Shown: one piece after another, positions 11,357-49,088 of the stretch
Layout of the letters: every line of letters begins with the position of its first letter
Numbering within the stretch: the stretch's first letter is position 1
Source of the DNA: Botryllus schlosseri
Lineage: Eukaryota
Reading direction: 5' to 3'
Length of the DNA: 64,000 bases
NCBI GenBank assembly: GCA_051294905.1
Contig: CM119371.1
Coordinates: 27,964,001 to 28,028,000, forward strand
The notes under the pieces: generated by a model
Database searches by the model: none
Seen by the model: the letters and a program-made list of their open reading frames with translations, nothing else
Told to the model about the DNA's origin: nothing
Program-made: the position numbers and the translations under genes

Positions 11357-11983
11357 ATGGCCCCTTCCCAGCGTCGTAACGGCTCCAATGATAATATTTG
11401 CGAGGTGTGCGGGAAAAGCTTTATCCTCAAATGTAATCTGACAAGACACAAGAACATTCATGCTGCGTCCAAGGATTTTGAGTGCGACATATGCGGTAAA
11501 AGCTTTCTGCAAAGGCATTACTTTAGCACTCATCTTTCGAGCCACGCAGGAAGGAAGGATTATAATTGCGACATATGTCAGAGATCATTCAACACAAACT
11601 GCAACTTGAGAAATCACGTGAAAATTCCCGCCGGGGTGAAAGAGTTTGAGTGCTAATTCTGCGGAAAAGCATTTCGTACGAAGTCAAACCGTAATGGACA
11701 CATCAAGATGAAACACTCGAAAACCAGAGAATACGAGTGCGTTATATGCGAGAAAACATTTGTGCAAGCGTCTCACCCAAAGTGTCACTATTCCGTCCAC
11801 ACGGAAATGAAATACCCGTGTGACGTATGTGGGAAAATATTCAATAACATATCCAACTCGAGAAGACACAGCAAGATTCACTTGGGAGTAAAACAGCACG
11901 AGTGCGAAATATGCGGGAGCAGATTTAGTGAAAAGAGTTCTCTTCTGCGTCACTTACGAATCCACGGAAGCGACGGGAAGTAA
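11357..11983 (+). pseudogene. C2H2 zinc-finger gene, 7 fingers, in-frame premature stop (ZF copy 1)
   Basis: ORFs 11357-11656 and 11708-11983 are in the same frame; TAA at 11654 replaces the GAA of paralogues; finger 3 has lost its last His (KIPAG). Confidence 0.85.
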
Positions 11984-12682
11984 GGATGCGAGAATCCGTG
12001 GAACAATTAGGAGATGGGTGGTCATGGATCTAGTAAATTCATCCGTTACATCCGTGGATAAGTTTTGATAAGTATAAGTAATATCATATTACATCTTGGT
12101 AACAATGAATTGGTGTGGCGAGGTATTGTCGTCAGTCACAACAAGGTTTACATATGAGACCAATAAACATATTATCGTAGGGTAGAGCAATTTATGAGTA
12201 AGTAGACGTTTCGCGCAACTATCTTAAACTATAGTCTAGGATACCGGGACAGCGAAATTGGCCTCATTTAGACTACCGAAATCGAAATCTCGGTGGAATG
12301 TGATATCGCTGTTTGCGACGGAAGATCGATTTTCTTATCAAATGCACATTGACGATTACATGGTATCTTGAAGAACAAGGTTATTTGGCGTATAGCCCGT
12401 TGCTAATAGTCTTTAGGCGTTCGCTTTTAGGGATTATCGACGTGTTCTTCATGACATGGCGCATCATACTGTAGCGTACTGCTCGCCTGAATCGGCTTGT
12501 TTCTTGATTTGTTTGCGTGCACTCTTCGTTGTGTTACCTATTGCAGTTTGCGAACCGTATTCATCAGCAGCGGTATTTTTGCTTTTTTTAATAAAAGTGG
12601 AAGTATTTGTTGATTGTCAACTGCTCGAATTTTGTCTTCAATGTCAACGACGAACATGCTTGTATGCAACCTTGCATATAGT

Positions 12683-12837
12683 GATCCGCAGCTGAAATGC
12701 AAGGAATTTCTACAAAAGATGTGATATTGACGTTGCAAATTATAATATATGAAAAAGGTTCACAGTGCAGAACCTACCAAGGTTATTTGTGAACGTGAAC
12801 CTCTAGATTTCTGAGGTTCACGTTCACACCATCCGCA
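12683..12837. mobile_element. Fragment of the gtgaac/gttcac hAT MITE family (see 55471-58004)
   Basis: Matches ~57822-58004 including the terminal ggttcacgttcacaccatcc. Confidence 0.7.
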
Positions 12838-12985
12838 GTAAAACCATAATTGTTGACTCACATTTGCAAGTTACTGTAACCCAAACACCCCCCTTTTAGG
12901 GTTCTTGGGTATGGGCCGCAAAGGGCATAATGTTGGGTCACCACGGCACCGGCGCAATCTTTTAATTTGTATCTAATATTTGTTG

Positions 12986-13050
12986 GACCGTAACCGCCGC
13001 ACACCAAACCCCTCAATTGGGGGTCGAGGCGAGCTCGAAGGGGGGCTCAA
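12986..13050. mobile_element. Left-end fragment of the 44493-45847 MITE family
   Basis: ccgtaaccgccgcacaccaaacccctcaattggggg...gagctcgaagggg matches 44497-44555. Confidence 0.6.
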
Positions 13051-14262: not shown

Positions 14263-16707
14263 TAGGGTTGTTCAGAATTGATCGACTTTCAAAATGTCGT
14301 GGTTTTCAGTCCGATTCCCATGCCTTATAACATAAAAACATATTCTAGGTACTTTTTTTCGTAATTCATCCCTTGCATCCGTGTGCACATTGAGCTGGAA
14401 GAATATCGGCTAAAAATAGGGGATTCCCCTAAAATTTGAGTGTCGCTATTCGGACTAGGCTAGTAAAACGTCATATATAAGCTGGTTTTATGTAGCTATT
14501 GCGGTTGGAGTGCTACATAACCTCACTATAGAAAGTATTGTCAGTTCAGGACACCATTTTCATGTCCCACACTGCCTTAGAACTTCTCAAAACTGCCTAA
14601 GACTGATAGTCATTTTGTTGGATCACCTATCCTACACTCCTCAACCCTATCCGAGATTGTTCATCAATTGCCGGGATCACCACGTGCAAGAATACAACTG
14701 TGAATGTATCATTCACTCACAGCCACATTATAAACATCACATTGTTCAAAGGAAACGAAACAAAAAGGCAAAGAAACAGATCAACTTGGCACATTGCATT
14801 GCACTGGGATGCAAAGCTCACTAGAAGTCGTTTCGGAGGGAAATTTGAGGCCTTGGCAGTGCTGGCATAGTCTGCATATTCCAACGCATTTGAGAAAGGG
14901 CAATCGAACTCTGGAGAGTGCTACAGGAAAAGCACAGGCTGATCTGTCATTTGAACTGATGGAACTTTATAATTTAACAAATAATGTCAGAGCTCTTGTG
15001 TTTGACACAACACCCTCAAACAATGGAAAAAATAAAGGCGCGGTTCTGTTACTTGAAGAATTGATAAACAGGAAAGTTTTCTGCTTTCTACTTCTGCTTG
15101 TCGCCATCATATTTATGAACTAGTCATCCGGGGAGGTCTGGAAGTGAAGTGTGTTTGGATCTGCGACCACAGGCCCTGAAAACAGATTTTAATACCGTCC
15201 AAGAAGTGGAAAGATATTGATCAATTAAGAAGCTCTAAAACACTTCAGTTTGATGAATGCAGCTGGTTGGCGATCAAAGCTTATGAAGCTGAGCAAGAAA
15301 TAATTCCACTGATGAAGCCATATAATGGAAAGCAGAAAGAAGTCTTGATAATAAATGACTACAGAGAATGTGCAACAGGCACCTTGGCGATTGTAGCTGC
15401 CCAATATATTGATAATCGTTTTCGCAAGCCTGGTGCTACTAATAGCACTGGATGGATGAGTCAAGTGCTGTACTGTCAAAAATGTTCATGTGGAGAGAGC
15501 AAATGGGCTATTCTGAAGAGTTCATTAGAAAGTTGCCCTGTTTTATGTCCCAGCTTGTTTGAAAACTGGTAATGCATGTGACGCACAGTATATTGATCTC
15601 AAATTCCTTCATGGCATGACAGACTTTTCATTGTGCGATTTCACAGTTGCTGATGTGGCATATAAAAAGATGCGAGAACATCATTGGCATCTCACCGAGG
15701 AAACGGTGGTATCAACAATGTTCTCGGCTAAACCAAAGATTCCTGACAAAGTGAAGGAAGCGATGGCTGCTAAATTGCTGCAAATGCCAATCCTTGAACA
15801 ATTTCGCAGAGGTAGGCTATACCTCTGAGTCTAATCTCTGACTCTGTCTCTGAGTCAATGAGTATGGTTGCTATAATTGAACCGGAATCATGGTTTCTAT
15901 TCAATGCTATACATGTCGAACATGATTGGTTTAGTCTTCCAGTTTCGGAATGGCATACTGATTCGCATTTCGTGACTGCTCAAGAATTTGTGAGTAGCGT
16001 TGAAATAGTTAACGGCGCAGCAGAGCGTTTGGTGAAATTGAATACCGACTTTGATGCTTTCGAAACAGATGACAAAGAACAGCGAGCGAGCCTCTTACAA
16101 GCCGTGGAAGATAACGGGAACAGATATGCCGATTTCTCTAAAGCAACCATTTCATCCGGACCTGATTTAAGTAGTATTTGCCAAGTTGATCTGTTTCTTT
16201 GCCTTTTTGTTTCGTTTCCTTTGAACAATGTGATGTTTATAATGTGGCTGTGAGTGAATGATACATTTACAGTTGTATTCTTGCACGTGGTAATCCCGGC
16301 AATTGATGAACAATCTCGGGTAGGGTTGAGGAGTGTAGGATAGGTGATCCAACAAAATGACTATCAGTCTTAGGCAGTTTTGAGGAGTTCTAAGGCAGTG
16401 TGGGACATGAAAATGGTGTCCTGAACTGACAATACTTTCTATAGTGAGGTTATGTAGCACTCCAACCGCAATAGCTACATAAAACCAGCTTATATATGAC
16501 GTTTTACTAGCCTAGTCCGAATAGCGACACTCAAATTTTAGGGGAATCCCCTATTTTTAGCCGATATTCTTCCAGCTCAATGTGCACACGGATGCAAGGG
16601 ATGAATTACGAAAAAAAGTACCTAGAATATGTTTTTATGGTATAAGGCATGGGAATCGGACTGAAAACCACGACATTTTGAAAGTCGATCAATTCTGAAC
16701 AACCCTA
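14263..16707 (+). mobile_element. Defective hATm-like DNA transposon with 529-bp inverted arms
   Basis: Termini TAGGGTTG...CAACCCTA; perfect TSD atggacac (14255-14262, 16708-16715); arms 14263-14791 and 16179-16707; empty paralogous site near 22446. Confidence 0.92.
14880..16160 (+). pseudogene. Frameshifted hATm-like transposase, C-terminal part
   Basis: Motifs spread over several frames: VFDTTPSNNG, (A)CRHHIYELV, DYRE, FRKPGA..GWM, HHWHLTEE, VNGAAERLV. Confidence 0.8.
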
Positions 16708-17336: not shown

Positions 17337-18635
17337 ATGGCCCATTTCCAGCGCCGTGAAAACTGCAGAGATATTATTTGCGAGGTATGTGGGATGGGAT
17401 TTAGCATGCAATATTATCTGACAAGACACATGAAAATTCACGCCACGTCGAAGGAGTTTGAGTGTGACATATGCGGAAAAAGCTTTTTGCAAAGGCCTTA
17501 CCTAATAGCTCATCTCTCGTCCCACACGGCAAAGAAGGATCATAAGTGCGATATATGCGGGAGATCATTCAATTTGAAATCAAACTTGAGAACACACGTG
17601 AAAATTCACTCCCGGGTAAAAGAGTTCGAGTGCGAAATATGCAGGAAAGGTTTCGTAAGGATGGCTCATTTAAAAACACATTACTTGAGTCATACTGGGG
17701 CGAAAGATTGCAAGTGTCAGGTATGCGACAAAGATTTCGCCCAGAAATCACATCTGAAACGTCATTCTTCGATTCATACTGAGTCGAGGGATTACGAGTG
17801 TCATATATGCGGAAAATCTTTTCGAGAAAATATCAGCCTGAAAAATCACTATTCGATTCATACTGCAGCGAAAGACTGTGAGTGTCAAATATGCGGAATA
17901 GGTTTTAAAACAAGTTCTCACCTGAAAAGTCATTATTTGATTCACGCCGACGATAAGGGACATCAGTGTAAAATTTGTGGGAAAACATTTCGTAGGAAGT
18001 CGTATGTTAAGACACACATCAAAATGATACACTCGAATACCGGAGAATATAAGTGCGAAATATGCGATAGAGCTTTTGTGCGAGAGTCTCACCTAAAGTG
18101 TCACTATTCCGTCCATGTGGAAATGAAATACCAGTGCGAGGTATGTGGAATACCATTCAATAGCAAATCCAGTATGGGAAGGCACATGAAAATCCACTTC
18201 GTATTGAAAGAGTTTGAGTGCGATGTATGCGCGAAATCATTCGTCATCGAATCCCACTTGAGAGCACACATGAAACGTCACGCCGGATTGAAAGAGTTTG
18301 AATGTAAGATTTGTGGTAAAGCATTCCGTTCGAGTTCGTACATTAAGATACACATGGAGTCGAGTCACTTACGGACAAAAAGATATGAGTGCGATATATG
18401 CGGGAAAACCTTTCGACAAATGACCAACCTAATAGGTCACTGTTCCGTCCACACGGAAAGAAAGTACCAGTGTGAATTATGTGGGAAAATATTCAATAAC
18501 ATATCCAACTCGAGAAGACACAGCAAGATTCACTTGGGAGTAAAAGAGCACGAGTGCGACATATGCGGGAGGACATTCAGTGAGAAGAGTTCTCTCGTTC
18601 GTCACTTACGAATACACCGAAGCGACGGCAAGTAA
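17337..18635 (+). CDS. C2H2 zinc-finger protein, 15 fingers, 432 aa (ZF copy 2)
   Basis: Uninterrupted ORF of tandem CxxC-x12-Hx3/4H repeats; ATG context agaaATG homologous to the other copies. Confidence 0.93.
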   Translation: MAHFQRRENCRDIICEVCGMGFSMQYYLTRHMKIHATSKEFECDICGKSFLQRPYLIAHLSSHTAKKDHKCDICGRSFNLKSNLRTHVKIHSRVKEFECEICRKGFVRMAHLKTHYLSHTGAKDCKCQVCDKDFAQKSHLKRHSSIHTESRDYECHICGKSFRENISLKNHYSIHTAAKDCECQICGIGFKTSSHLKSHYLIHADDKGHQCKICGKTFRRKSYVKTHIKMIHSNTGEYKCEICDRAFVRESHLKCHYSVHVEMKYQCEVCGIPFNSKSSMGRHMKIHFVLKEFECDVCAKSFVIESHLRAHMKRHAGLKEFECKICGKAFRSSSYIKIHMESSHLRTKRYECDICGKTFRQMTNLIGHCSVHTERKYQCELCGKIFNNISNSRRHSKIHLGVKEHECDICGRTFSEKSSLVRHLRIHRSDGK

Positions 18636-24426: not shown

Positions 24427-24457
<31 letters not shown>

Positions 24458-25459: not shown

Positions 25460-26812
25460 CAGTGGTTCTCAACCTTTTTCGACACGCGACCCCCTGGAGA
25501 TGGTCAAAAAACTCGCGCCCCCCTGACCTCCCTTGCATTTATCGTCATGTCAAAAAGAGCACATCATCTAATACAGAGGTGGGCAACGGTTTTGATAATC
25601 ATGACCGCATTTCGATTGCTTATGTAGCGTAAGGCCGCATTCCAGGGCATAGCCGCAATGAACGATCTGGACGCAAAATTCCTACGGTAAACTGTCCATA
25701 TCCATTCCCGGTGAACTCCGGACCATTCTACTTTTCTCAATGGCCTATTGTACGCACCGAAATCGCGAGTGGCAATGTTATGAATAGTTGCCGGGAGGGG
25801 CATATTGTCGCGCGGAGCGCGAAAATTTTTCAGGGCCGCGAACGAATAGCTATTTCTTGCCAATTCCCATTCCGGCTTAGATTAAGAAGGGCGCTACTGC
25901 ATTAAAATAGAAAAATGAAGTCTTGTTGAATTGCGCGGAGGGCGAAGAAAATTTCAAGATTAATTAAAATCTCTCGAAAATGCGGGAGTGAATTCGTAAT
26001 TGCAATTTGCATGTCTACGGCCGCCAACGCATAGCCTACTAATTGAATTAGGCGTCGACGGCCGCTCAAATTCCCTTCTACGGCTGCAGGCTGCCCACCC
26101 CTGATCTAATAGTATACATAAGGGATATCTTACGCCAATTTTGAATCTGCATTCCAATTGTTGAGTATTTTACATTGCTGACAAATTTCTTCAAACTTGT
26201 TTGAAAATAACAAAAAACATTGAACAAGACATCCATTAATTAATTTCAATGTAGGTCACCCTGAGACTAATCCTGATGCTGGTTGTGAGTACAGAGAGCA
26301 AGGCGTCGTTCTGTCCTGCCAGGCTAAATTTGATCAGCTTTCGAAATGAATTAATTGTGTTGATTTATAGCCTAATTGAGGGCGAAACCGAGCAACCTAT
26401 GTTGCATGTAAGTCTGTCTTAGGCAGTGCAGTTCGCAAGCTACTAACAAGAGCTTCCCAGCGCGACCAGCTTTAGGCTGCTGTCAAAGCTATGAAGCAAT
26501 GAATGACTTACACGTGGGAATTGCTCTCTATATCTCCAAAGAATTTCAAAAATTTGCTCAAATGAAGTTGAAATCAGACTGTATACTCAGTTGAGCACTG
26601 TTGCTAGAGTTTGTATTTTGCAAGCTTTCTTGAATATGGAATAAATTTCATCTTCATTAATCGTCTTCTGATATTGGATGTGAAACACATGTTCAGACAC
26701 GTACAATTTATACTGACTTTGTCAATTTCTCGCGCCTTCCCTATACTGACTTCGTCAATTTCTCGCCCCCCCCCCTGAGAGCCTCCCGCGCCCCCCAGGT
26801 TGAGAACCCCTG
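25460..26812. mobile_element. hAT (Buster/Charlie-type) MITE
   Basis: TIR cagtggttctcaacct...aggttgagaacccctg; perfect TSD cactaaac. Confidence 0.9.
25574..26103. mobile_element. Nested hAT MITE
   Basis: TIR cagaggtgggca...tgcccacccctg; perfect TSD atctaata. Confidence 0.88.
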
Positions 26813-28493: not shown

Positions 28494-28804
28494 CTCATCA
28501 GTTAATTTGCTCAGCTCACATAAGCACCAGTCTAATTTTGTGAAATTCATTGTGATCAATATTTCTGGATTGCCATCAGTTTGTGTTGATGACGAAATTA
28601 CGCGTATGACGAATAACCACGTCCGAGAATATAGTAATACACGGGATATCTGGCAAAACCAGGTTTATCGCGTTTTATACGAACAGTTTGAACATGCTTA
28701 GTTTTAAAAAGGTAGCGACAGCGAGGCAACAATTCTTAATTTTTGAACGATTACCGTAAAATTTTGTGACTTCAGCCAAAAGTATTAGCACAGCATCCTA
28801 TAAA

Positions 28805-30616: not shown

Positions 30617-31244
30617 ATGTAGAGTATGAGCCTTTACGGACGATTCGCACTTAATAGAATTGACTTATACGATATGGAGTAGCTGGAACCCGCAAAATCT
30701 TCGTCAGTTCGACAGTTACAGCAAGCAGATATAAATCGTTGGTACGGAACGGGTGTTCTGGTGATGATGACCGCCGACCGTAAAAATGCTGCATAACAGT
30801 GTAGTCCTACCATGATTGAAGATATTTTTGGTCTGTTATGACGGTGGTCGGAAGACTATTTCGTCGAAGGAGCCATATTTACCTTTCGACCGTGAATGTC
30901 AATCCATAGTTTTCTCCTACCTCTATTGTCTACTTCCACCACAGGTAATGTTGGCACGCCCTGAAAATCGCTTCTTCCGCTTGTAATTGATTAGAATTGG
31001 ACGGTATTATAGTTCTATTTCTAGTTGCGTACTAGCAATAACTACTCTGCCTACCTCTGGCTATTATATAACGAACAATGAAATTTTGTGATTAGAAAAA
31101 ACATATCTTTTCATGATGTAATCTTTTGAAAATTTTAGAACGCAGCAATACACTAACTTGCTCACGATATTTGAAGAAAGTCCGATAAATCTAATTGTAT
31201 GCTCATCAAAGCTAAAGTCGCAAGGTGTACTCGCAAGGTTAGAA

Positions 31245-32645
31245 ATGCCCCATACCCAGCATCGTAAAGGATGCAATGATAATATTTGCGAGGTATGTGG
31301 AATGGGATTCATCATCAAATCTTATCTGACAAGACACATGAAAATTCACGCCACTTCGAAGCAGTTTGAGTGCGAGATATGCGGAAAAAGCTTTGTGCAA
31401 AGGCCTTACCTGATACATCATCTCGCGTCCCACGCGATAAAGAAGGAATATAAGTGTGACATATGCGGAAGATCATTCAACACTAGATGGAACTTGAGGA
31501 AACATGTGAGCATCCACGCCGGGGTGGAAGACTGTGAATGCGAAATTTGCGGAAAAGGTTTCGCTGGTAAGGGCTATTTGAAAACACATTTTTTGAGTCA
31601 TACTGGAGCCAAACATTACAAGTGTCATATATGCAGCAAAGGTTTCGGAGACAAAAGTAATCTTAAAAGTCATCAGTTGATTCATATCAAGACGAAAGTT
31701 TACGAGTGCAATATATGCGGCAAACTTTTCCGACGGAAAAATACACTGAACAATCATTACTTGATTCATACGAAGTGTAAAGATTACGCGTGTCAGGTAT
31801 GCGGCAAAGGTTTCCGAACAAAGTGGGACCAGAAAAGTCATTTTTCGATTCATACTGCAGCGAAAGATTACGAGTGCCGAATATGCGCAAAAGGATTCAA
31901 AACAGGATCTCATCTGGAGAGTCATTATTTAATTCACACCGGAGATAAGCAACATGAGTGCAAAATTTGTGGGAAAGCATTTCGTTGGAAATCGAGCCTT
32001 AAGGGACACGTGAAGGTGATACACTTGAATATGAAAGAATATGAGTGCGATTTTTGCGGGAAAGCTTTTGTGCAAGATAGCCATCTAAGATATCACTATG
32101 CTGCCCATATGGATCTGAAATCCCACATAGACATACAATACCAGTGCGAGGTATGTGGGAAACGATTCGATCTTAAATGCAATTTGGAAAAACACATGAA
32201 CGTTCACGTCGGATTGAAAGAGGATGAATGCGATGTATGTGCGAAACTATACGCCAACAAATCGCAATTAAGAGCACACATGAAATTTCACTCCGGATTT
32301 AAAGAGTTTGAATGCGATATTTGTGGTAAAGCATTCGGATCGAAGTCGTACGTTCAGATACACATAGAGTCGGCCCACTTAAACACGGAAGGATATGAGT
32401 GTGATACATGCGGTAAAGTCTTTCGGCAACAATCAAACCTTATAGCTCACTATTCCATCCACACGGAAACGAAATACCCGTGTGCAGTATGCGGGAAAAT
32501 ATTCAATGTCAAATCCTACTTGAGAATCCACAGCAAGATTCACTCGGGAGTAAAAGAGCATGAGTGCGATATATGCGGAAGGATGTTCGGTGCAAAGAGT
32601 TCTCTTCTTCGTCACTTGCGAATCCACGGAAGCGACGGGAAGTAA
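31245..32645 (+). CDS. C2H2 zinc-finger protein, 16 fingers, 466 aa (ZF copy 3)
   Basis: Intact ORF; the start homologous to the other copies is ttagaaATG at 31245, not the TTG at 31158 used by the ORF track. Confidence 0.92.
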   Translation: MPHTQHRKGCNDNICEVCGMGFIIKSYLTRHMKIHATSKQFECEICGKSFVQRPYLIHHLASHAIKKEYKCDICGRSFNTRWNLRKHVSIHAGVEDCECEICGKGFAGKGYLKTHFLSHTGAKHYKCHICSKGFGDKSNLKSHQLIHIKTKVYECNICGKLFRRKNTLNNHYLIHTKCKDYACQVCGKGFRTKWDQKSHFSIHTAAKDYECRICAKGFKTGSHLESHYLIHTGDKQHECKICGKAFRWKSSLKGHVKVIHLNMKEYECDFCGKAFVQDSHLRYHYAAHMDLKSHIDIQYQCEVCGKRFDLKCNLEKHMNVHVGLKEDECDVCAKLYANKSQLRAHMKFHSGFKEFECDICGKAFGSKSYVQIHIESAHLNTEGYECDTCGKVFRQQSNLIAHYSIHTETKYPCAVCGKIFNVKSYLRIHSKIHSGVKEHECDICGRMFGAKSSLLRHLRIHGSDGK

Positions 32646-33479
32646 GGATGCACATTTCGTGGGACAAATCGAAGACGGTAGAAATTGCTACAGTAGAAAA
32701 TGTCATCGCATCCAGAATATTCGTCCGCTGCATCCGTGGAGACGTTTTGATAAAAGAAGTGATATCTTGGTAACAATGAATTAGCCTGCTATGATATTGG
32801 TGTCGGTCGCAGCATCGAATACATATGGGACTAATAAACATTATTATAATGTAACGTAAACCAATTCAAGAGTAGGTACTAAGTAGACGCTTCGCACAAC
32901 CACTGTAAATTAGACTAGAGGACCGGGGCTATGGAATTGATCTGATTCATACTATACCGAAAGAGGATGGCAATATCTGTGTTTACGACAAGTTGATAGA
33001 TTTTTCTTTCGAAATGTAAATTGGGGATTTTATGATATTTTGAAGAGCAATGGAATTTCACGCGCACGCTCGCTGATAGCCCTTGAGCGTGTTCTTTTGA
33101 GGATTGGCGGTGTTTTCTTCATGACATGGTGCTTCATGCTTCTAGTATATTTTACGTTGTCATCCAAGCTATGCTTCAGGACGTGCGAACATGTCATCAT
33201 GCATTGGGAAGTAGTTATTTAGTATCAACTGTTCGAATTTACTTAAAAAAAAACAATGAATACATGCTTTTTAATGTGTAGGTTACTCTGCGTCAACCAC
33301 CAGCTAACGTGCGGCTTTTTGCCAGGTTTCGTGTCTTCTTTCTTTTGCTCGTCAATGCAAATGGCGATATATGCAAGTCAACTATGTAACTTGTCAACTC
33401 TCAACGACGAATGTCACATTACGGCAGCTATCAATATCTTACCGTCGCGAATACTTGTCTCATAGTCTTTGACCTTTCA

Positions 33480-35197
33480 GTCGCGACGCCGACGTGAACC
33501 CACATATCTCAGTATTTTTGTAATACCAATTGCTCGAATTATGTGTTGAATATGACCGACAAACATGATGCTTCAGTGCGGCCAGTTCTGTGGCGGTAAT
33601 TTCATCTGACAGTCGGGTGCCGCGTTCCAGACAAAGGGCAATTACATCTTTAATGTAATCGATAACAATTACAGATTGCGATATTAGTCGTTCCCAACCT
33701 TTTTCGACTCATCGCCCCCTTATCCAGCTCAACGCAAATCCCTCCTCCCATATTTACGCTCCCGAAAAAAAGAGGACATATATGCTAAACAGGAAAGCTA
33801 TTCACCTAATTCTCATCGCTGATGAATTGACCAAAAAAACATTTTCTGAGTATGTGCTCGAAAAACTGGTTTCAGTTGAGTTGACCTCTTCGTTTAGTCA
33901 ACTTTCGCGTCATATGCAGTATAAGCCGTCTTCACGTGCATTTTTGATCGTGTTGATTAAATATATCTCATTGGATATTCTATCATTTTCGCCCCCAGTC
34001 GCCCCCTTTGGTATTGTCGCCTTCTTGCTTCTCAAAATCATCCAAGAAGGGGATGGGGGTAGCCTACCGCCGACGTTAGCAACTACTGTACTAGACAGAG
34101 GTTTTGCAATGTAAACAACAATGAGATAATGACCATTTAGTTTAGGCCCTATGCATAACAAGGCTCTTCCCGGCAAACCCAAGCAATGTGCTGCTCTTAG
34201 CCTCCAACAGGTGGTCACCTCTGTTGGCTTGAAAGGTCAGTAGATATTTTGTGTCCACTATTCAACTTCAATGCGTGTCGATACACGAATTGCCAGTATA
34301 TAATGTTGAATAAATTGTAAATAGTGAACAACTGGTCTGGTCCATCGTTTTGCACCGTAATCGGCGGTGTCTGCAGTGCACTGACTATCCATAATGCGGG
34401 GAAGCCGTGGCGAGTATATCTGGTTATTGATATAGGTAATAATAATATTCCGGTCGCGTGATGCTGAACCGTGCAGTGCTAATTTGGTAGCGTTAGTGGA
34501 AATACGGTGTATTAAATTTAAGTCGACTTCGTTCATACTAGCTTACAATTAGTTTGACAGATTCTGGGCGAGAACCCATTTTGTATCCCAAAACGCCTTT
34601 TATCAATTGACAACGGGGGGAGCCGTCATGAAGATAGGAACGAGACATTACAAAAAGGAAAACCAAATTGGTCACGTCACTATTGCCAAATATAAGATTA
34701 GGGTGTAACATCGCTCGCCGTGAAAAAGATTAAATCGGGTAAATTTACTTTACATTACACTCACATACACCAATCTTATTTATGATTCCGATAAATCTCG
34801 TATCAAAAGAGCCGTTGAAGTGCATCAGAACACTACGTTTCAGTAGATTACATCAAGTATGTATAAAACTTGTTGAAGTAAGTATGCAAACAAATTACTA
34901 GCACATGAAACCTGTTGCGGTAGAAGCACTTTCTTACTGATGGCTATATAGTCCGATATGACAACTTTTGTTGCTCTCAAATCGTATTAAAGTTGCACTT
35001 GATTTTACCAAAAGATGCAGTAAAAAGTTTCATCTATAAAATGCCAACATTCAATCATCACCGCACTATGAAAAAAAGGGCCCTGACTGACAACTAGCCC
35101 TCTAGCCTCACTCAATCAGCCACGGAAGCAATACTGCGCAACAATCTTTCTTCGGTCTTCACTCACGCACGACCAATAAAAAGGTGATCGGATAGAG
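33480..35197 (+). repeat. Duplicated 3' flank of the ZF unit
   Basis: Colinear with ~49150-49610, 50425-51230, 52545-52686 and 53498-53745; a third partial copy at ~38500-38596, 39350-39492, 40106-40300. Confidence 0.85.
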
Positions 35198-37340
35198 CAG
35201 TGGTTCTTAACCTTGCTCCCAGCGCCCCCCAGGGGGCGCTAGCGATTTTGAAGGGGGGCGGAAACGCTCAAGGGGCGATATGGGGGGCGCTGGGTTCAGG
35301 GGGCGGTATGGGGGGCGCTGGAGAAAAATGGCTTCGCAGTAGATGATGTGGTGATAGGACATATCCTTAATGAGTATTCAGAGCAAATTAACACCGACAA
35401 CTTCGCTATATATAGCCTTCAAAGTACATATAGGTTTAATTGTCCATGGGCGCCTAAATGACTGGCACCGAATGTTCCTGTCTTGGCAATCTGAACCCCA
35501 GAACACGAATTCCATCTGGCAGGGAAAAATTATATGCCAGTGAAGAAATACCAATTTGAAATCGTGTGTGTCTCTTAGTTTAGTACGATTGGGCGACAAG
35601 GATATTCCTGTTGGGCGATATCCCTGTTGGGCGATTCTATATTTTTTGATATTGCAGACAGGAGGTCACGAAATAACATCATGCAACGAAGTCATATTAA
35701 CGGGTTCGCCCGCCCGAATATGTTATATTAACTAATATATTATTAGTTACGGGCCCTACAATTTCCAAGACACCTGACAATGTTCGCTTCAAGTTTTGAT
35801 GAGTCTGCGCACACGCACACTCAACAACTCACTGCGCTGACCCTTGGACAACAGTGCGTAACGACTCAAAAAAGGTCATAACTTCGGATTTGTTGCAGAG
35901 ATGGGCGGATTCCCAAATTTCGGGATCCGAATCTATCCGGATCCGGCTGGCAAGTGGAAATTCAGAGTCCGAAAAATTCCGGCTGGTGAAGGTCCAGTTC
36001 GGAATCCGAAAAAATCCTGCCAGAACAATGCTAATTAATCATATTGCAGCAAAAGAATCCGGCTAAAATCCGACCGTCACCGCAAATTCAGAATCCGGAT
36101 CCAGTCCGGTTAGGTAAAAAATCAATGAAATCCTGCTCCGGCTCCGGCTCCTGAACCGGACTGTGGCCATCTCTGATTTGTTGTGAGCAAAGTAGATTTT
36201 CTGTGCGCAGAGACGGTGTCAGCACTGCGCACGTGCGCAGCTTTGAGGGAACATTGCATCTCACTCAGCTCTACCGGTAAATCTGGTAACGTGCGCAGAG
36301 AGGACAAGAAATTGATAGCAATATATTTGCAATCCCCGGTCTTACTGACCGATTTTCGCATGAATTATCGAAAGTTTTCGCGCTTCGCACTGGCTCGCTA
36401 AACAGTACAGCTGATTCCGTGACAAAAGCGAACAACGTGATGGGGGGGGGGGGGGCGGTGGTCGGTTTATCACCCTATGGGAGCCCAAGACCCAAGTTTT
36501 TTCGGGGGATGTATAATTATTATTGAGGGTCCTACCTTTTCAAACACACATCACTCAGCTCTACCGGTAAATCTGTTTACGTGAGCAGAGAGAGGATAAA
36601 AATTGATCTCAATATACATGCAATTCCCGATCATATTGACCAATTTCAATCATTAATTAGTGAAATTTTCCGCGCGTCGCGCGTCTAGGCGAGTGTAGCT
36701 GCCTCAGTAAATGGACAGTTGGACACCCAATGTAGATACCTTGTATCAGCAAATAGCGGACAGCCGAGTGGGGGTCTGGGGGTGAAGTCCCCCGGAAGTT
36801 TGGTTTATCACCCGATGAGGGCCCAGCACCAACGTTTTTTGTTTGGGGGGGGGGCTGACGAAGTGCTGTTACGGCCCTGGTAACGAATAATTTTACCTAA
36901 TGGCACGCCCCAATATGTTTAATTATTACTTACGGGCCCTTTATTTTCCTATACAACAGCTCACTCAGCGCTACTGGTAAATCTGATTACGTGAGCTGAG
37001 AGGATAAAAAGTTTATAGCGACATATATATATATGAATTACCACCTATTCATTCATGCATTATAGAAGATTTTGGTAACTAGGGCGACCAGGCCACACAA
37101 ACTTTGCTGACCATCGAAATAACGCTATGGGGTTCGTGGGGGCGAAGCCCTCAGAAGTTTGGTTTATCACGCTATGGGTGCGCAAGGCAATCGTTTATAG
37201 GGGGGTCGACGAAGTGCTGTTACGGCCCTCCCTCTTACTCATTGTCTTTATTACATTCCTCATAATATGAAGTTGGGGGGCGCTGGAGCACGATAATTTT
37301 TGAAAGGGGGCGCTGGACGAAAAAAGGTTATGAACCACTG
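35198..37340. mobile_element. Composite hAT element carrying part of another MITE family
   Basis: TIR cagtggttcttaacct...aggttatgaaccactg; perfect TSD ggatagag; empty site near 53725; interior homologous to 44870-45847. Confidence 0.9.
35896..36175. mobile_element. Nested hAT MITE with ccgga subterminal repeats
   Basis: TIR cagagatgg...ccatctctg; perfect TSD atttgttg. Confidence 0.9.
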
Positions 37341-37368
37341 GGATAGAGCAACATCTAACATTCCATAC

Positions 37369-38495
37369 AAGTGGTTCTCGAGCTGGTGTCCGCGAGACAA
37401 TTCTTCAGGTCCACGAAAGAAGTTCCAAAAATTCCCATGATCCAAAAAACTTAATTCGTGTTATAAATATTTTCAAACAACGTATTGTTCAGACCAAATT
37501 CGAAGGTGACCTGAGGTTATACCGTAAGGCATCATACAGAAGAGTATTTTGGTGAAGAGTTATTCAATTTGAAATTTTTGTCGCGCATAGCTAGATTTAG
37601 TGTCACTTGATTTCTTGATTTTGTTGCGTGCACTGTGCATAACCACTCCCGAACAAAATAGTCATAACTTATTTGGTTATTTGGAAGCGCGTAGCGTGAA
37701 CATTTTCCGTATTTCATGGTGGCATTTGGTGAATGAGATTGCCAATTACATATATTACTATAACAGTTTGTCCCTTCTCTGCCCACGTGATCGTATTTAC
37801 CAGTTCACTGAGGGAAGTAGTGTCTTTGAAAAGTTCGGGCGGCGAATTCATTACCAATTTTCAGTAGTTACATCTTCGGGCGGGCCCGTTGTTACTACGT
37901 ACTTTTTGCATGTTTTCGCTTCGTGACCATACGTCTTTTGTATAGTCAAAATATATTGGAATCGACCGGAAAGTGCCAGACTAAAATAAAAGAAGAAATT
38001 ATTCGGTGTGACGCAGATTCCAAATTGACATTTCGTCTCATAGCGAATCATTTTTTCTTTGGGTCGTAGTTATCCTGTGGGGTTAATAATGCCAGGACTA
38101 CAATATTTGCGTCGCGGCAATTGTTTGCTGAATATAACGATAAATCGGTCTGGAATGCTACATTTACCGATCAACGTTAGCGAAGCCACTAGAGGAAAGA
38201 ATCAATTCCAATTCTCAGGCATTACACAGTAACGTACTGTCCAATTTCACGCTGCAATCAAATTGACTGTCACGAAAATCTGGCTGACGAATTATTGTGA
38301 GCACGCGGGATCACGGTGCGTATGGTTGCAAAAAATAATTATGTGAGTCGTGAAGTTACACCAGTTATGAAGCGAATCTGTCCCGTCATTTACCTAATTG
38401 AAAAAATAGTAATTAGGTTATCAGTCGTTTTGTGAATTTGGAGGTCTCACGGACCCCATGAAAATGCTTCGTGGACCCCCAGTTGAGAACCACTT
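37369..38495. mobile_element. hAT-type MITE
   Basis: TIR aagtggttctc...gagaaccactt; no clear TSD; interior shared with 53745-53940 and 54170-54850. Confidence 0.65.
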
Positions 38496-38604: not shown

Positions 38605-39093
38605 TAGGGTTGCATTTTAAAAAAAATAGAAATAATAAATAAACAGATCGAGGCCTTTTAAATAAATGTATTTTTTAAGTTGTATAATTATCCCATAGTT
38701 GTGTAAATATTTTCCAAAAAATATGTTGTATGAGCCTACGGACGAATACCACCCGATATTTACCGACGTATACGATATGGGATGGTTGGAACCCTTGAAA
38801 TAGTCGGTTCCACAGCTATAGAATGAATGTTCTAATGATGATGACCAACGACCGCCAAAGTGCTGCATGAGGAAGTAGTCCTGATAAAAGATATTTTAGG
38901 TCCGTGACAGGCGTTGGAAGCCTATTTCGTCTAATGAGCTATATTTACCCTGTAATTACAATTGTGAATGCCAATCCACTATGACATCACAATTGAATAT
39001 TCGTTACCTCAGATTTAAATGACATGTTTCAAACAGGGGCCGTGTTTTAAACATGTTCGATTTGAATTGATTTTTGTTTTAAATACAACCCTA
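38605..39093. mobile_element. hAT-type MITE
   Basis: TIR tagggttgcattt...aaatacaacccta; TSD tccatagg/tccgtagg. Confidence 0.85.
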
Positions 39094-43100: not shown

Positions 43101-44234
43101 TGTTATTCATGATTCCGAGTTGACCCAGATCCCATGTCGGCGAGTTATGAGCTTAGTGTGCGGTAGCGTTTTTGTTTTCGGATTCACGCACGCTGAGTTA
43201 ATCCAATTACGTCGTGCTTTTCCGATGGGAAGCGAACGCTTACAGTAACATCAGCAGCATGAATTGAAGATTTTTCGCCAACCTTTATTAGTTGCCAATA
43301 TCAGGTAACGTCAGACCAGATTGCTCTTAATAATTGTCCGAAGATTGGCGAGATATTGCAGTCGATGATAACCCCCGATACGGCAAATTCAATACAAAAT
43401 TAATAAGTCGTTGATTCCATATTTCCTAATGCTATTTCGATCCTGTCTAATCACTATATCGCAGTCTTGTGGTGTTTTGAAACGATGAAATTTTATTAAT
43501 AAACTGAAGTGAACGTCATGAATACCAAAATAATTAACATCTCGCAGCCGGCACACAGCGGTGTTACGGCTCGCTAGCGCTCGATTAGACGATTACTGAT
43601 CAATCAATGGCGCGAGGCTACAATAGTTTGTTATCGTAGGTCCCGGATAGCTCTTTATTCGAGCTATTCTGCCACACAACGATATAGCAAGGGTAAAGTC
43701 TGATCAGATCCGCAAATGTGCACAGCGTTAGAGAAAGTTACAAGTAGCCTATTCACTATTTCATTAAAATTGAGATCTGATATCGTGGCGAACTAGCCGT
43801 CAGGTAGCTGACACCGACAGATGTCGCAGTGGTTCTCACCCGGTCATTTGAATAACGGTAACATGATTTGCAGGATTGAGCCCACATCAACATAGTCGAA
43901 CTGCACAAAGTCAACGGACCCGCTTGCAGGTGATATTACCACAATCTCAGATGATGCAGCTAGCGAACACGGCTACTTTTGAAATTTGTCGTATATTTAA
44001 CTCCTTTTTATGATTGTCATGTTCCAGTTCTGTGTTCCAGTTCTGTGTTCCAGTTCTGTGCCGATCGGCATGCTTTTCAGTCGGGCTTTGTCCATTTGTC
44101 GTGCGTCAGCTGATTATTAGTATCGTCTGAATATCAGTCTCGCTTTAACTGTTTTCCTTTTGCTCGTAATACTTCATAATCGCGTAATAAGTCTGGGAGG
44201 AAGTGTTACCAAATCAAATCGTATAGTGCTTTGA

Positions 44235-44240
<6 letters not shown>

Positions 44241-44272
<32 letters not shown>

Positions 44273-44460
44273 CTTTATTCGTATACATTACATATCAACA
44301 TTACACTACAAAAATATAACAGTGAAATGCGACATGCAAGGTTGACGGGAGGCTCGATATGACAAAGTCTTCAGAGCGGAGCCACCCAGGAAAGGAGCAA
44401 TTTTTACAGTCGATAACTATTAAAGTATAGAGTTATAGACCTCTCTATACTTGATCTGGT
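44241..44460 (-). repeat. (GA)15 microsatellite abutting a probable LINE 3' end
   Basis: (ga)15 at 44241-44270; the minus strand reads ...AATAAAGAT(TC)n; the LINE assignment is inference. Confidence 0.5.
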
Positions 44461-44492
44461 ATTGTGCTGTATGATTGATATACAGATTTGTA

Positions 44493-45847
44493 CAGGGCCG
44501 TAACTGCCGCACCCCAAACCCCCCAATTGGGGGGGGGCCGAGCTCGAAGGGGGCCCAAAATTATTTCGTGAATTAGCATAAATTGTTGAGCATTTTTGGA
44601 AAATTTAAGCAACTTTATCAAAAATTTTTCGCGCTGCGCGCGATTTCAAGGTGCCAAGTATCTTGAATATTGGGTAGGCCTACTCTTCCCACAAGAAAAA
44701 ATACGCAAGATTTATAGAAATGGGCATATCAGCGTCGGCCATTACCTCGCCACGACGCACCAAGACGTATAAAGTTTTAGGCCATGTAACACGCGACTGC
44801 AAGAAGTGTGCCAGAACGATCGGCAGCGAGAAAACCTTGGCCGAAAGGGACTCCCCTTATGCTGACCGAAAACTTCGTTATATATACAAAATACATGTGG
44901 GTTTAATAGTCCATAGGCGCCTAAATGACTGGCACCTAAATGTTCCTGTCTTGGCAATCTGAACCTAACAAGACAAATACCACCCCGCAGGGAAAAATTA
45001 TATGCCAGTGAAGAAATACCAATTTGAAATCGTGAGATCTTTTAGTTTAGTACGTTTGGGCGATTGTATATTTTTGATATAGCAGACAGGAGGTCACGAA
45101 ATAACATCATGTAACAAAGTCATACCAACGGCTCCACCTGCCCGAAGATGTTTAATTATAATTTACGGGCTCTAACTTTTTCCAAGACAGCACCTGACTC
45201 ACCTCTACCGGTAAATCTGATTACGTGAGCAACTGAGTATAGAGGACAAGAAATTGATGGCATTCCCGATCTTATTGACCGATTTTATCTTGAAATATCG
45301 AAAATTTTCGCGCTTCGCGCTGGCCTACTGCGCAGTAGCCTACATCTATAATTTCGTGGCGAAGTGAACAACGTGGTGGCGGCCTGGCGGGTCGGTTTGT
45401 CATCCTATGGGAGCCCAAGACTCCAGTTTTTTGGGGCCTGACGAAGTGCTGTTTCGTTCCTGCCAACGGGTATACAATACACCCGGAGAGGTTTATTTAT
45501 TATTGAGGGGTCCTACCCTTTCAAACACGCCTCACTCTGCTCTACCGGTAAATCTGATTACGTGAGCAGAGAAAGGATAAAAATTGATAGCAATATATAT
45601 GCAATTCCTGATCATATTGCCCGATTCAATCATCAATTATAGAATTTTTTCGCGCTTCGCGCGTTTAGCCGATAAAAACTGAGTCACTAAACGGACACCC
45701 AATATAGATGATAAGCAGCGGTAAACAACGAACAGCCTGAGGGGGGTCTGGGGGGCTTCGCCCCCCAGAAGTTAGGTTTATCACCCTATGGGGGGCCCAG
45801 GACCAACGTTTTGGGGGGGGGCCTGACGAAGTGCTGTTACGGCCCTG
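44493..45847. mobile_element. hAT-type MITE with internal ~340-bp tandem units
   Basis: TIR cagggccgtaac...gttacggccctg; perfect TSD gatttgta; units start ctctaccggtaaatctg at ~45203 and ~45540. Confidence 0.9.
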
Positions 45848-46543
45848 GATTTGTATCTGGAAACCATGTATATCGAGCCAACCTGGACATAATCCTGTTG
45901 TGCTATTTTCTTACATCGATTTTGTTTACTTTAACTTTAACTCTGTGGATGCTTAATGCTTTCTAATAGAAATTGGTCTTTAAGAATAGATCCTCATCAC
46001 TGCCACGGGGAAAATTGCATAACAAGACTACTCACAGTCCTTCCGGAACTCTTCGATCTTTTCATTATATCGCAATCTTGTGGGGTATTGTTTTGATTGA
46101 AAAACTAATAAAATGATGTCGATGATGATAACAACTATGCGATGTAAATTCTGTACGATCGTAACAGATAATTTCGAAACTAGCAGCTATTTTGATGGCC
46201 ATTAGTTAATCTATAGTTTGGGCATTCTCTGAAAATCAGTACTTATACTTGTCATCAATTAGAAATTACAGGTTTTATAGTTCTACTTTTAGTCGAGTAC
46301 TAGCAATAAATACTTTGGCCACCTCGGGATGTGTTGTAGTATAGATAACTAACCTACGGTATAGGATAGTTATCTATAGTTGTAGCGAAATATAATATTC
46401 TGTGGTGATGAAGCGTATTTCCATTCTGATATAATTTGAAAATATTGGCATGATAACGTGATAGACAATGAAGGGCTTATATATCGCATCGCATTGTTTA
46501 CCTGTCTCAGTTAAAATAGAAAAGGTTTCTCGATAAGTCAGAA

Positions 46544-46803
46544 ATGACCCATTCCCAACGTCGCAACAGCTGCAATGATCATATTTGCGAGGTAAGTGGA
46601 AAAACCTTCATCACCAAAGATTATCTGACAAGACACATGAAAATTCATGCCGCGTCGAAGCAGTTTCAATGCGACATATGCGGTAAAAGGTTTTTATGCA
46701 AAATCGTTCCCTGACAAGTCATCTCTCGGTCCATGCAGCAAAGAAAGATCATAAATGCGACATATGCGGGAGATCATTCAATTCGAACTCAAACTTGCGA
46801 AAT
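46544..46803 (+). pseudogene. Truncated, frameshifted C2H2 zinc-finger gene (ZF copy 4)
   Basis: MTHSQRRNSCNDHICEVSGK... (Cys to Ser in finger 1), frameshift near 46695, homology ends within finger 3. Confidence 0.85.
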
Positions 46804-47338
46804 CTCGAGTTATTCTGGGGTGTCGACTATGTTTATTTCACATTGAACGCTCTCTCATTCGAAATTTCATGCTGGTGACGTCATATTTTGTGATACGATT
46901 GTTGATATACAATGTTCTTTCCAATTCTCTACTAGTTGCCGACGATTACCCCTGAAGAGTGTCAGCCAAAAATATTCGGGTTCATTTCAATATGAATATA
47001 CTATTCATTTGTATATTGAAGTTTTGTACCTCCAAGAAGCTCTTCACAGGAATTTTGCAAACAAATTTTTCCACCACATGAACAAAGCATCTCTAAACAG
47101 TAATGTGTTTGTATTAGTATTTATTGGCAATTAAAATGAGTTTGCTTAGCAGAGTATTTCATCTCACACGGACATTTTGTGTAGGTGAGTCCTGGGTTTT
47201 TGGCAGTTATGAAGCGAAATTGCCCCGTGATTTCTCTAATTTAAATGAAATGCAAATTAGGTTATCAACCATTTTGCATATTTGGAGGTTTCGCGGAACC
47301 CCTGAAAACGATCCGCGGAACCCCAGTTGAGAACTACT
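46804..47338. mobile_element. One-ended hAT MITE remnant
   Basis: Right end ggaaccccagttgagaactact; 46952-47045 matches 8011-8105; left TIR absent. Confidence 0.55.
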
Positions 47339-47792
47339 ATATTTGAATATGCCTAAATGTCCGGAATTTTCATAAATTAGGGGTCAGTTAAAAAGTACGT
47401 TTACACGGTGGTCGGGGGCTATATCCCCGTTCACGTCAACAGTTGAAGAACAATATTCCCTATGTTTCGAAACGTAGCTGCTTTGGAAATTGATATTCAA
47501 GTCGATCCTCATCACTGTGGCTACGGACATTACATAACAGATATGGGATGTATAGATTTAACACGACCGCAACAGAATATTATTAAAATGGCAGCTATTC
47601 TTATGGTCATTAGTCATTCTGCACTGGTGTCATGCATTAAATTATTCTGACTTTACTTCAGTGGTTCTTATACCCATATCTCCTACTTCTACTACAGGTA
47701 GTTTTGGCTTGCTATAAATATCGCTATACTTCTACTTATGATTAGAAATTAAAGGTGTTATAGTTCGACATTTCAAGTTGTAATCTTTTGAA

Positions 47793-49088
47793 ATGAACCC
47801 TTTCCGAACTCTTAATGGCGGCGATGATCATATTTGCGAGGTATGCGGAAAAATCTTCATCGTCAAATCTTATTTGACAAGACACATGAAAATTCACGCC
47901 GCGTCGAAGGAGTTTGAGTGCGAAATATGCGGTAAAAGCTTTTTGCAAAGGCCTTCACTCATAAGTCATCTCTCGTTCCATGCAGCACGAAAAGATCGCA
48001 AGTGCGACATATGCGGGAGATCATTCATTTTCAAATCGAACTTGAGAAATCACATCAAAATTCACGCAGCCGTGAAAGAGTTTGAGTGTGAAATATGCGG
48101 GAAAGGTTTCGCAAGAAAGACTCATTTGGAAGCACATTATTTGAGCCATACTGGAGCGAAAGATTACGAGTGTCATATATGTGGCAAAAGTTTCGGACAA
48201 AAATATAAACTGAACAATCATTACTTGATTCATAAGTCTAAAGATTACGTGTGTCAGGTATGCGGCAAATGTTTCCGAAATAAAGGTAACCTGAAAGGTC
48301 ATTTTGCGATTCATACTGCAGCGAAAGTTTACGAGTGTCGAATATGCGCAAAAAGATTCAAAACCGGATCTTACATGGAGAGTCATTATTTGATTCACGC
48401 CGGAGATAAGAGACACAAGTGCGAAATTTGCGGGAAAGTATTTCGTTGGATGTCGAACCTTAAGGGACACGTCACGGTGATACACTTGAATATGAAAGAA
48501 TATCAGTGTGATATCTGCGGGAAAGCATTTTTGCATGAGAATCATCTAAGATATCACTATTCCGCCCATATGGGAACGGGATTCCAATGCGAGGTATGTG
48601 GGAAACGATTCAATTTTAAATCCCATATGAAAATACACATGAACATTCACGTCGGATTGAAAGAATTTGAGTGCGATGTATGTTCGAAACTATACGCCAA
48701 CAAATCCCATTTAAGAGCCCACATGGAATTTCACGCCGGATTGAGAGAGTTTGAATGTGAGATTTGCGGTAAAGCATTTCGATCGAAGTCGTACGTTCAG
48801 GTACACATGGAGTCGGCCCACTTAAAAACGAAAGGATATGAGTGCGATGCATGCGGTAAAGTCTTTCGACACCAATCAAACCTTGGAGGTCACTATTCCA
48901 TCCACACGGAAACGAAATACCCGTGTGAAATATGCGGGAAAATATTCAATGTCAAATCCTACTTGAGAAACCACAGCAAGATTCACTCGGGAGTAAAAGA
49001 GCATGGGTGCGATATATGCGGAAAAACATTCGGTATAAAGAGTACTCTTGTGCGTCACTTACGAATCCACAGAAGCAACGGAAAGTAA
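47793..49088 (+). CDS. C2H2 zinc-finger protein, 15 fingers, 431 aa (ZF copy 5)
   Basis: Intact ORF, closest to copy 3. Confidence 0.93.
   Translation: MNPFRTLNGGDDHICEVCGKIFIVKSYLTRHMKIHAASKEFECEICGKSFLQRPSLISHLSFHAARKDRKCDICGRSFIFKSNLRNHIKIHAAVKEFECEICGKGFARKTHLEAHYLSHTGAKDYECHICGKSFGQKYKLNNHYLIHKSKDYVCQVCGKCFRNKGNLKGHFAIHTAAKVYECRICAKRFKTGSYMESHYLIHAGDKRHKCEICGKVFRWMSNLKGHVTVIHLNMKEYQCDICGKAFLHENHLRYHYSAHMGTGFQCEVCGKRFNFKSHMKIHMNIHVGLKEFECDVCSKLYANKSHLRAHMEFHAGLREFECEICGKAFRSKSYVQVHMESAHLKTKGYECDACGKVFRHQSNLGGHYSIHTETKYPCEICGKIFNVKSYLRNHSKIHSGVKEHGCDICGKTFGIKSTLVRHLRIHRSNGK

What the first reader, a model, noticed from the sequence alone, without database searches (positions are those of the whole stretch)
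11357..49088. Birth-and-death cluster of effector-less, single-exon C2H2 zinc-finger genes embedded in dense transposon sequence
Seen: five same-strand paralogues (7, 15, 16, under 3 and 15 fingers), each with only ~14 aa before finger 1; the four that reach their end share a (G/R)S(D/N)GK C-terminus. No KRAB, ZAD, SCAN, BTB or SET domain is visible. Two copies are dead, and none of the many MITE insertions interrupts the three intact ORFs. Known: KRAB-ZFP clusters in tetrapods evolve this way and repress TEs. Inference: this may be a lineage-specific, effector-independent (or novel-effector) TE-recognition repertoire in an invertebrate.
Basis: partly seen in the sequence, partly recalled or inferred. 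Interest (0 to 1): 0.72.

Follow-up and report, generated by a model that had tools for sequence, protein, structure and literature searches.

The report
Finger-only zinc-finger gene cluster
Five neighbouring copies of a gene that seems to encode only a string of DNA-reading zinc fingers (three intact, two broken) lie among transposons in what looks like a sea-squirt genome; such clusters are already known from other animals, and a role in silencing transposons is untested.

Summary
Observation confirmed: five + strand C2H2 paralogues (7, 15, 16, under 3 and 15 fingers), each with a 14-aa leader; copies 1 and 4 are broken. The three intact copies are under purifying selection (dN/dS 0.33-0.37). 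Their base-contacting residues change at about the neutral rate (0.67-0.89), not demonstrably above it. Sequence argues against an upstream effector exon: in-frame stops and frame-breaking indels lie just before the ATG, and no other Pfam domain was found. RNA was too thin to settle it, so 'single coding exon' is likely and 'single exon' is unproven. No close homologue was found (best 44-45% identity). The host is probably an ascidian. The absence of MITEs from intact ORFs is weak, circular evidence, and nothing links the fingers to TEs. The architecture matches the hemipteran ZF271-like/APEZ finger-only clusters (PMC6444547). The scan noted a similar cluster in another genome (e1-7498679). 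One oddity: none of 43 linkers is TGEKP. Verdict: new member of a known kind.

The parts
11357..11983 (+). c1: broken ZF copy, 7 finger units; stop at 11654-11656, His->Pro in finger 3, internal deletion of middle fingers
   Evidence: dN/dS against c2 still 0.33, so loss is probably recent (inference)
17337..18635 (+). c2: intact ORF, 432 aa, 15 C2H2 fingers, 14-aa leader, ends RSDGK
   Evidence: a few RNA reads on its 3' third in run X8
31245..32645 (+). c3: intact ORF, 466 aa, 16 C2H2 fingers, ends GSDGK
46544..46807 (+). c4: broken, truncated copy (under 3 fingers; Cys->Ser in finger 1, frameshift in finger 2)
47793..49088 (+). c5: intact ORF, 431 aa, 15 C2H2 fingers, ends RSNGK; in-frame stop 4 codons before the ATG with no AG between them
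10173..11356 (+). 5' flank of c1, colinear with the c4 flank (41352-46543, interrupted by insertions); non-coding
   Evidence: acceptor-like site ending 11063
30912..31244 (+). 5' flank of c3 shared with c1, c4, c5 (c2 shares only from about 17150); acceptor-like site ending 30944; probable 5' UTR or intron end
   Evidence: indels of 2, 5 and 16 nt; in-frame stops
32646..38342 (+). 3' flank of c3, colinear with the c5 flank (49089-54849): evidence that whole gene units were tandemly duplicated
14263..16707 (.). DNA transposon with about 530-bp TIRs (99% complementary), 8-bp target duplication, decayed transposase-like frames inside
   Evidence: no Pfam or Atlas hit for the frames; hAT-type label is recalled from the 8-bp duplication, from no call
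25460..26812 (.). TIR element with 8-bp target duplication, holding a nested one (25574-26103)
35198..37340 (.). TIR element with 8-bp target duplication
38605..39093 (.). MITE with 8-bp target duplication (1 mismatch)
44493..45847 (.). TIR element with 8-bp target duplication inside the c4 5' flank

Best explanation
A lineage-restricted subfamily of finger-only, many-fingered C2H2 proteins, probably in an ascidian. SHOWN: 5-17 kb units were tandemly duplicated with their flanks; arrays gained, lost and fused fingers in frame; two copies died; three are kept by purifying selection on the zinc-binding frame while the recognition helix drifts fast. INFERRED: translation starts at the conserved ATG (one coding exon, probably with a non-coding 5' exon). 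The basic proteins (pI 9.1-9.4) bind DNA in the nucleus through subsets of their 15-16 fingers, each paralogue with a different preference. With no separate effector they would act by occupying sites or by recruiting co-factors on the surface of some fingers. I put the chance that the main targets are transposon-derived sequences, to be repressed, at about 0.35; otherwise ordinary promoters or repeats.
For: dN/dS 0.37, 0.33, 0.37 at dS 0.36-0.55 over 13-14 homologous fingers per pair; Cys/Cys/Phe/Leu/His positions 0.05-0.06; contact positions 0.67-0.89. 12-21 nonsense changes per ORF would be expected under neutrality, none seen (rough). Same GAAATG context in 5 of 5 copies, while 71 of 162 ungapped upstream columns are invariant among c1-c4. 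Upstream indels of 2, 5 and 16 nt, none a multiple of 3. In-frame stops 4, 24 and 42 codons before the ATG in c5, c2 and c3. Leader evolves without constraint (pN 0.35-0.57 against pS 0.14-0.31, 11 codons). 149 of 150 non-ZF ORFs have no Pfam hit; the one hit is an integrase. Best database identity 43%, 45% and 44%, while c2 and c3 would score 608 and 746 bits against a list floor of 416. Lys kept at linker position 4 in 31 of 36 seven-residue linkers, the DNA-backbone contact according to PMC8084297. Precedents: PMC6444547, PMC3971581 ZNF-only class, finger-borne co-factor binding in Kipferl (PMC11245307).
Against: Expression was barely seen: depth 0-1.5 in two bulk RNA runs sampled at 6% and 13%, no splice joint into either ORF among the 15 joints shown (145 more not shown), no start sites; c1, c4 and c5 were not in the stretch laid. 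c2 and c3 keep possible in-frame acceptors: an AG 33-36 nt before the ATG and a CAG at leader codon 5, so a hidden exon is not excluded for them. Helix positions -2 and +1 vary as much as +3 and more than +2 (18, 20, 19 and 14 of 40), so the fast change may be relaxed constraint. No linker is canonical (0 of 43), which could weaken DNA binding. No binding or TE test was possible.
Confidence: 0.7

Rival explanations
1. KRAB/FiNZ-like two-part gene: a short effector exon upstream is spliced to the finger exon, and the ATG seen here is internal or secondary.
For: This is the standard layout of KZNF and FiNZ genes (PMC10547256). The c2 frame is open 23 codons and the c3 frame 41 codons upstream. 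c2 has a fair acceptor 36 nt before the ATG; c1-c3 have a CAG at leader codon 5. A 28-aa unknown exon would escape the Pfam scan (ORFs of 50 aa or more). A scan note reports such an unrecognised exon in another genome (e1-7506451, unchecked).
Against: The proximal AG has different phases in c2 and c3, is followed by stops in c1 and c4, and is deleted in c5. c5 has a stop 4 codons before its ATG with no AG between, and lacks the leader CAG, yet is as well conserved. No protein-level block is shared upstream of all three intact copies among 1006 open segments of 20 aa or more (judged by eye). Intact copies share only about 190-380 nt of 5' flank.
Confidence: 0.2
2. TE-recognition repertoire: paralogues diversify to bind the young MITE and transposon families and seed their silencing through a finger-bound co-repressor.
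For: Contact residues change 1.05-3.1 times faster than other non-structural positions (bootstrap ranges). A further one-finger-shorter variant occurs in run X5. ZNF number tracks retroelement number across metazoans regardless of accessory domain (PMC10547256).
Against: No dN/dS above 1 (intervals 0.63-1.36, 0.47-1.12, 0.60-1.15). Neighbouring TEs prove nothing, and TE-rich DNA itself promotes duplication. Hemipteran finger-only families do not track repeat content; dipteran ZAD-ZNFs do not either.
Confidence: 0.35
3. Largely passive expansion: duplication driven by recombination between repeats; copies are redundant regulators of ordinary genes, kept for dosage, with relaxed recognition helices.
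For: Whole flanks including TEs are duplicated. 2 of 5 copies are dead. Contact-site rates do not exceed neutral, and non-contact helix positions vary as much. Expression is near zero in the two RNA runs laid.
Against: Three copies stayed open and constrained across dS 0.36-0.55; about half of the contact residues differ between copies (26-29 of 52-56), which is hard to square with full redundancy.
Confidence: 0.3
4. The arrays bind RNA or proteins more than DNA.
For: 0 of 43 linkers are TGE[KR]P and 0 of 36 seven-residue linkers have Pro at position 5, against 585 and 911 of 1256 in the hits; TGEKP is described as typical of DNA-binding arrays. Hydrophobic or aromatic residues fill 33 of 138 positions -1/3/6 against 875 of 5052 in the hits (p = 0.053).
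Against: Linker length and the position-4 Lys are kept; variation peaks at -1 and +6 (26 and 23 of 40) as in DNA readers; the comparison set is vertebrate-heavy, with no tunicate control.
Confidence: 0.12

Closest known systems
ZF271-like / APEZ finger-only C2H2 families of Hemiptera (milkweed bug, pea aphid; PMC6444547, section 11 read whole)
   Same: No domain besides the finger array; tandem clusters of 4-8 genes; pseudogenes; changing finger number; independent lineage-specific expansion; function untested.
   Different: Different phylum and no sequence relationship tested or seen, so an analogue and not a member. Oncopeltus genes vary in exon number and are strongly expressed (98% with support); here one coding exon and almost no RNA seen. 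Linkers here are non-canonical.
Vertebrate 'ZNF-only' polydactyl genes (PMC3971581, passages)
   Same: Architecture class: polydactyl C2H2 array with no KRAB, SCAN or BTB; 212 human to 1026 zebra finch models in its Table 1.
   Different: Many human ZNF-only genes are old and conserved; this set is young and has no close homologue.
KRAB-ZFPs of tetrapods and FiNZ-ZNFs of cyprinids (PMC10547256, parts 1-3 of 9 and passages)
   Same: Single exon holding the whole array, tandem clusters in repeat-rich DNA, fast change at contact residues, birth and death.
   Different: No KRAB or FiNZ-like exon found; positive selection not shown; TE binding and embryonic expression untested.
Ascidian C2H2 repertoires (Styela clava, PMC8122590, passages)
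   Same: C2H2 is the largest and most variable transcription-factor family among tunicates (154 genes in S. clava); probable host group.
   Different: The passages seen give counts and expression only, not this subfamily; no tunicate protein appeared among the listed named hits for the ZF proteins.
Kipferl (Drosophila ZAD-ZNF; PMC11245307, passages)
   Same: Precedent that one finger of an array can recruit a heterochromatin protein, which is how an effector-less array could act.
   Different: Kipferl has a ZAD domain and a known partner; nothing of the kind is shown here.

Membership tests
Polydactyl C2H2 zinc-finger proteins | Tandem C-x2-C-x12-H-x3/4-H repeats (PF00096), at least five | tested here: met
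   15, 16 and 15 fingers; PF00096 248-274 bits
Polydactyl C2H2 zinc-finger proteins | Canonical TGEKP linker | tested here: not met
   0 of 43 linkers; length and Lys4 kept. A typical feature, not a required one.
KRAB-ZFP | N-terminal KRAB domain, usually on an upstream exon | tested here: not met
   No KRAB hit in the 3 proteins or in 150 other ORFs (open segments under 50 aa not scanned)
KRAB-ZFP | TRIM28/KAP1-dependent repression of TEs | not testable with these tools
   No genome held, no binding data
ZAD, SCAN, BTB or SET zinc-finger families | The named N-terminal domain | tested here: not met
   same size limit
FiNZ-like genes (unknown short effector exon) | Conserved short coding exon spliced in frame to the finger exon | tested here: inconclusive
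   No shared coding block seen; excluded upstream of the ATG for c5; possible acceptors remain in c2 and c3; RNA too thin
Finger-only tandem clusters (ZF271-like/APEZ type, as an architecture) | No domain besides the array | tested here: met
   96% of each protein lies between first and last finger; subject to the exon caveat above
Finger-only tandem clusters (ZF271-like/APEZ type, as an architecture) | Tandem paralogues with pseudogenes and finger gain or loss | tested here: met
Finger-only tandem clusters (ZF271-like/APEZ type, as an architecture) | Lineage restriction | tested here: met
   No listed hit above 45% identity; only the best 120, 120 and 150 hits were seen, and proteins of 237-255 or over 816 aa only
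ZF271-like/APEZ as a clade | Phylogenetic membership in the hemipteran subfamily | not tested
   No tree built; unlikely given the host group
Arms-race TE repressors | dN/dS above 1 at base-contacting residues | tested here: inconclusive
   0.67-0.89, intervals include 1; three non-independent pairs
Arms-race TE repressors | Binding to TEs; germline or early-embryo expression | not testable with these tools
   Tissue of runs unknown; depth 0-1.5

The most novel reading that the evidence does not exclude
An ascidian-specific family of finger-only proteins with a proline-free linker (xxxK[E/D][Y/F/H]) forms a KRAB-independent TE-recognition repertoire in the sister group of vertebrates, recruiting silencing factors through the fingers themselves, and is tractable in a species with many RNA data sets.
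Probability: 0.2. Interest if true: 0.62.

Novelty: new member of a known kind. Interest (0 to 1): 0.3.

Why it matters
How finger-only arrays act, and whether invertebrate zinc-finger expansions really police transposons, is open: PMC6444547 calls for finding their partners, and PMC10547256 says direct validation outside mammals is still needed. A compact three-gene set in a probable ascidian would be a usable test case close to the vertebrate root. By itself the cluster adds one more example of a pattern already published, and gives no evidence on the TE question.

Tried and rejected
Genome-wide census: no genome held. Exact look-up of the 3 proteins: 0 of 3 in the collection. Run search: no RNA holder listed; not used as evidence. 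Read laying on 14801-34800: X1 and X5 cover all 30 bins and behave as DNA; X8 and X12 gave too few reads for splicing or start sites. Atlas search of c3 gave generic C2H2 clusters, with a recognition score below the tool's threshold; the transposase-like frame gave no usable hit. The leader as a novel effector motif: rejected, it is unconstrained. The SDGK tail as an effector: 5 residues, function unknown, absent from the C-termini of all fetched hits; not pursued. MITE avoidance as evidence of function: rejected as weak and circular. Low-copy blocks repeated upstream of several copies (23031-23516, 40973-41345, 55248-55471, 58006-58343, 9835-10158) as a shared coding exon: gap-ridden alignment with no common frame seen; could still be promoter or non-coding exon. 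Motif prediction against the MITEs was not run: PMC10547256 reports that only 11 of 236 predicted motifs matched measured ones, too weak for three proteins. No fold or complex prediction was run, since the fold is not in doubt and no partner is known. Literature searches listed no paper on this cluster; the library lacks most subscription papers.
Full report
1. Observation. A six-frame motif scan of the window finds C2H2 fingers only in five + strand places. With starts at 11357, 17337, 31245, 46544 and 47793 the copies hold 7, 15, 16, under 3 and 15 fingers. c2, c3 and c5 are open (432, 466, 431 aa); c5 and c2 are 73% and 64% identical to c3. c1 has a stop in finger 4, His->Pro in finger 3 and an internal deletion. 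c4 has Cys->Ser in finger 1, a frameshift and a truncation.

2. Surroundings. Flanks are colinear between copies: c1/c4 upstream (10173-11618 with 41352-46807), c1/c2 downstream, and c3/c5 downstream (to 38342 and 54849). Whole units were therefore duplicated in tandem. Six elements with terminal inverted repeats and 8-bp target duplications were found in the interval by a strict short-TIR scan, one nested in another; this is a lower bound. In run X1, 19 of 30 bins exceed depth 100 while the 6 ORF bins are at 4-16. An integrase fragment at 8943-9791 has Styela clava (52-56%) and Ciona (49%) as its best named hits among 78. That, and unchecked scan notes calling this genome sea-squirt-like, suggest an ascidian; a transposon is a loose taxonomic marker.

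3. Are the genes functional? Nei-Gojobori counts on homologous fingers give dN/dS 0.37 (c3/c5, 14 fingers), 0.33 (c3/c2, 13) and 0.37 (c5/c2, 13) at dS 0.36-0.55. Middle fingers with unclear homology (c3 5-6 or 5-7, c2 5-6, c5 5 or 5-6) and mid-linker codons were left out. Structural positions are at 0.05-0.06, contact positions at 0.67-0.89, with bootstrap intervals that include 1. The three pairs are not independent. Positions -1 and +6 vary most, but -2 and +1 vary as much as +3, so relaxation is not excluded. A neutral ORF would have gathered roughly 12-21 stops. RNA support is thin: in two bulk runs depth over c2 and c3 is 0-1.3, with a few reads on the 3' third of c2 and just 3' of c3 in X8.

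4. Is there an effector? None in the ORFs. I scanned 150 other ORFs: 140 of the 190 + strand open segments of 50 aa or more (all 139 upstream of c5 and one downstream), the 2 in-frame extensions of c2 and c3, and 8 - strand ORFs. The only hit was the integrase. The 5' flanks behave as non-coding: indels of 2, 5 and 16 nt, 71 of 162 columns invariant among c1-c4, but GAAATG in all five copies. c5 has a stop four codons before its ATG with no AG between. The leader is unconstrained. Pyrimidine-rich acceptor-like sites at 11063, 30944 and 47697 are homologous and are followed by in-frame stops, which fits a non-coding first exon. Against this: c2 and c3 retain possible in-frame acceptors shortly before the ATG and at leader codon 5, and a short unknown exon would escape Pfam. 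I put finger-only at about 0.85 for c5 and 0.7 for c2 and c3 (judgement).

5. Relatives. Best identities among listed hits: 43% (120 listed of 7699), 45% (120 of 226 short proteins), 44% (150 of 175361). A protein as close as c2 is to c5 would have scored 608 bits, above the list floor of 416. None of the fetched hits carries the tail or the finger-1 motif. Run X5 holds a contig that skips 107 nt of c2 and puts in 26, a net loss of one finger; by my hand reading it also carries an in-frame stop, so a further broken allele or paralogue exists. Another X5 contig matches the c3 start at about 89%.

6. None of 43 linkers is TGE[KR]P; 18 of 36 seven-residue linkers read xxxK[ED][YFH], a pattern that reaches 30% in 0 of 285 database arrays, and only 6 of 285 lack the proline altogether. 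The comparison set is vertebrate-heavy. Lys4, described as the backbone contact (PMC8084297, passages), is kept.

7. Mechanism. Most likely these are nuclear DNA-binding proteins with paralogue-specific preferences that act by site occupancy or by finger-borne co-factor recruitment, as shown for Kipferl (PMC11245307, passages). Only the evolution is shown; binding, targets and repression are inferred. TE targets are possible (0.35) but nothing here tests them, and the absence of MITEs from intact ORFs is weak and circular.

8. Comparison. The architecture is that of the hemipteran ZF271-like/APEZ families: finger-only, clusters of 4-8, pseudogenes, no correlation with repeat content (PMC6444547, section 11 whole and passages). 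ZNF-only models number in the hundreds in vertebrates (PMC3971581, passages). C2H2 genes are the most variable family among tunicates (PMC8122590, passages). The TE-driven model is PMC10547256 (parts 1-3 of 9 and passages); the word 'tunicate' does not occur in its main text. No supplements were read. Searches listed no paper on this cluster. The scan has a note on a like cluster in another genome and on contact-residue bias in ZF pairs elsewhere in this genome; both are unchecked AI notes.

9. Verdict. Real, correctly described, under selection, probably finger-only; a new member of a known kind. Interest 0.3.

Noticed in passing
window 8943-9791 (-): 283-codon open fragment of an LTR-retroelement-type integrase (Pfam rve, 29.3 bits, below cut-off); best named hits Styela clava 52-56% and Ciona 49%.
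   Followed up: partly
window 14263-16707: Young-looking DNA transposon: TIRs about 530 bp at 99%, intact 8-bp target duplication, but a fragmented transposase-like interior with no Pfam or Atlas hit; part of the TIR seems to repeat the end of the interior. High copy, and relatives have RNA reads (depth up to 15 in X8).
   Followed up: partly
window 55469-58012: Nested long inverted repeats (152 nt at 97%, 201 nt at 88% and more) splitting a block that is also found upstream of c1, c3 and c4; may mark the flank of a lost sixth unit.
   Followed up: no
window 3596-6778: Nested palindromic elements built on a GACTT/AAGTC pentamer repeat.
   Followed up: no
window 60259-64000: AT-rich region of local duplications and a tandem repeat of about 190-200 bp (63166-64000).
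   Followed up: no
window 26512-26572: A short stretch with very high RNA depth (about 250 reads per strand in X12) whose reads run on into other sequence: a repeat fragment inside an abundant transcript from elsewhere.
   Followed up: no
whole window: No CpG depletion (observed/expected 1.12), GC about 40%.
   Followed up: no
window 18370-18478: Run X5 carries a variant one finger shorter than c2: a further allele or paralogue.
   Followed up: partly
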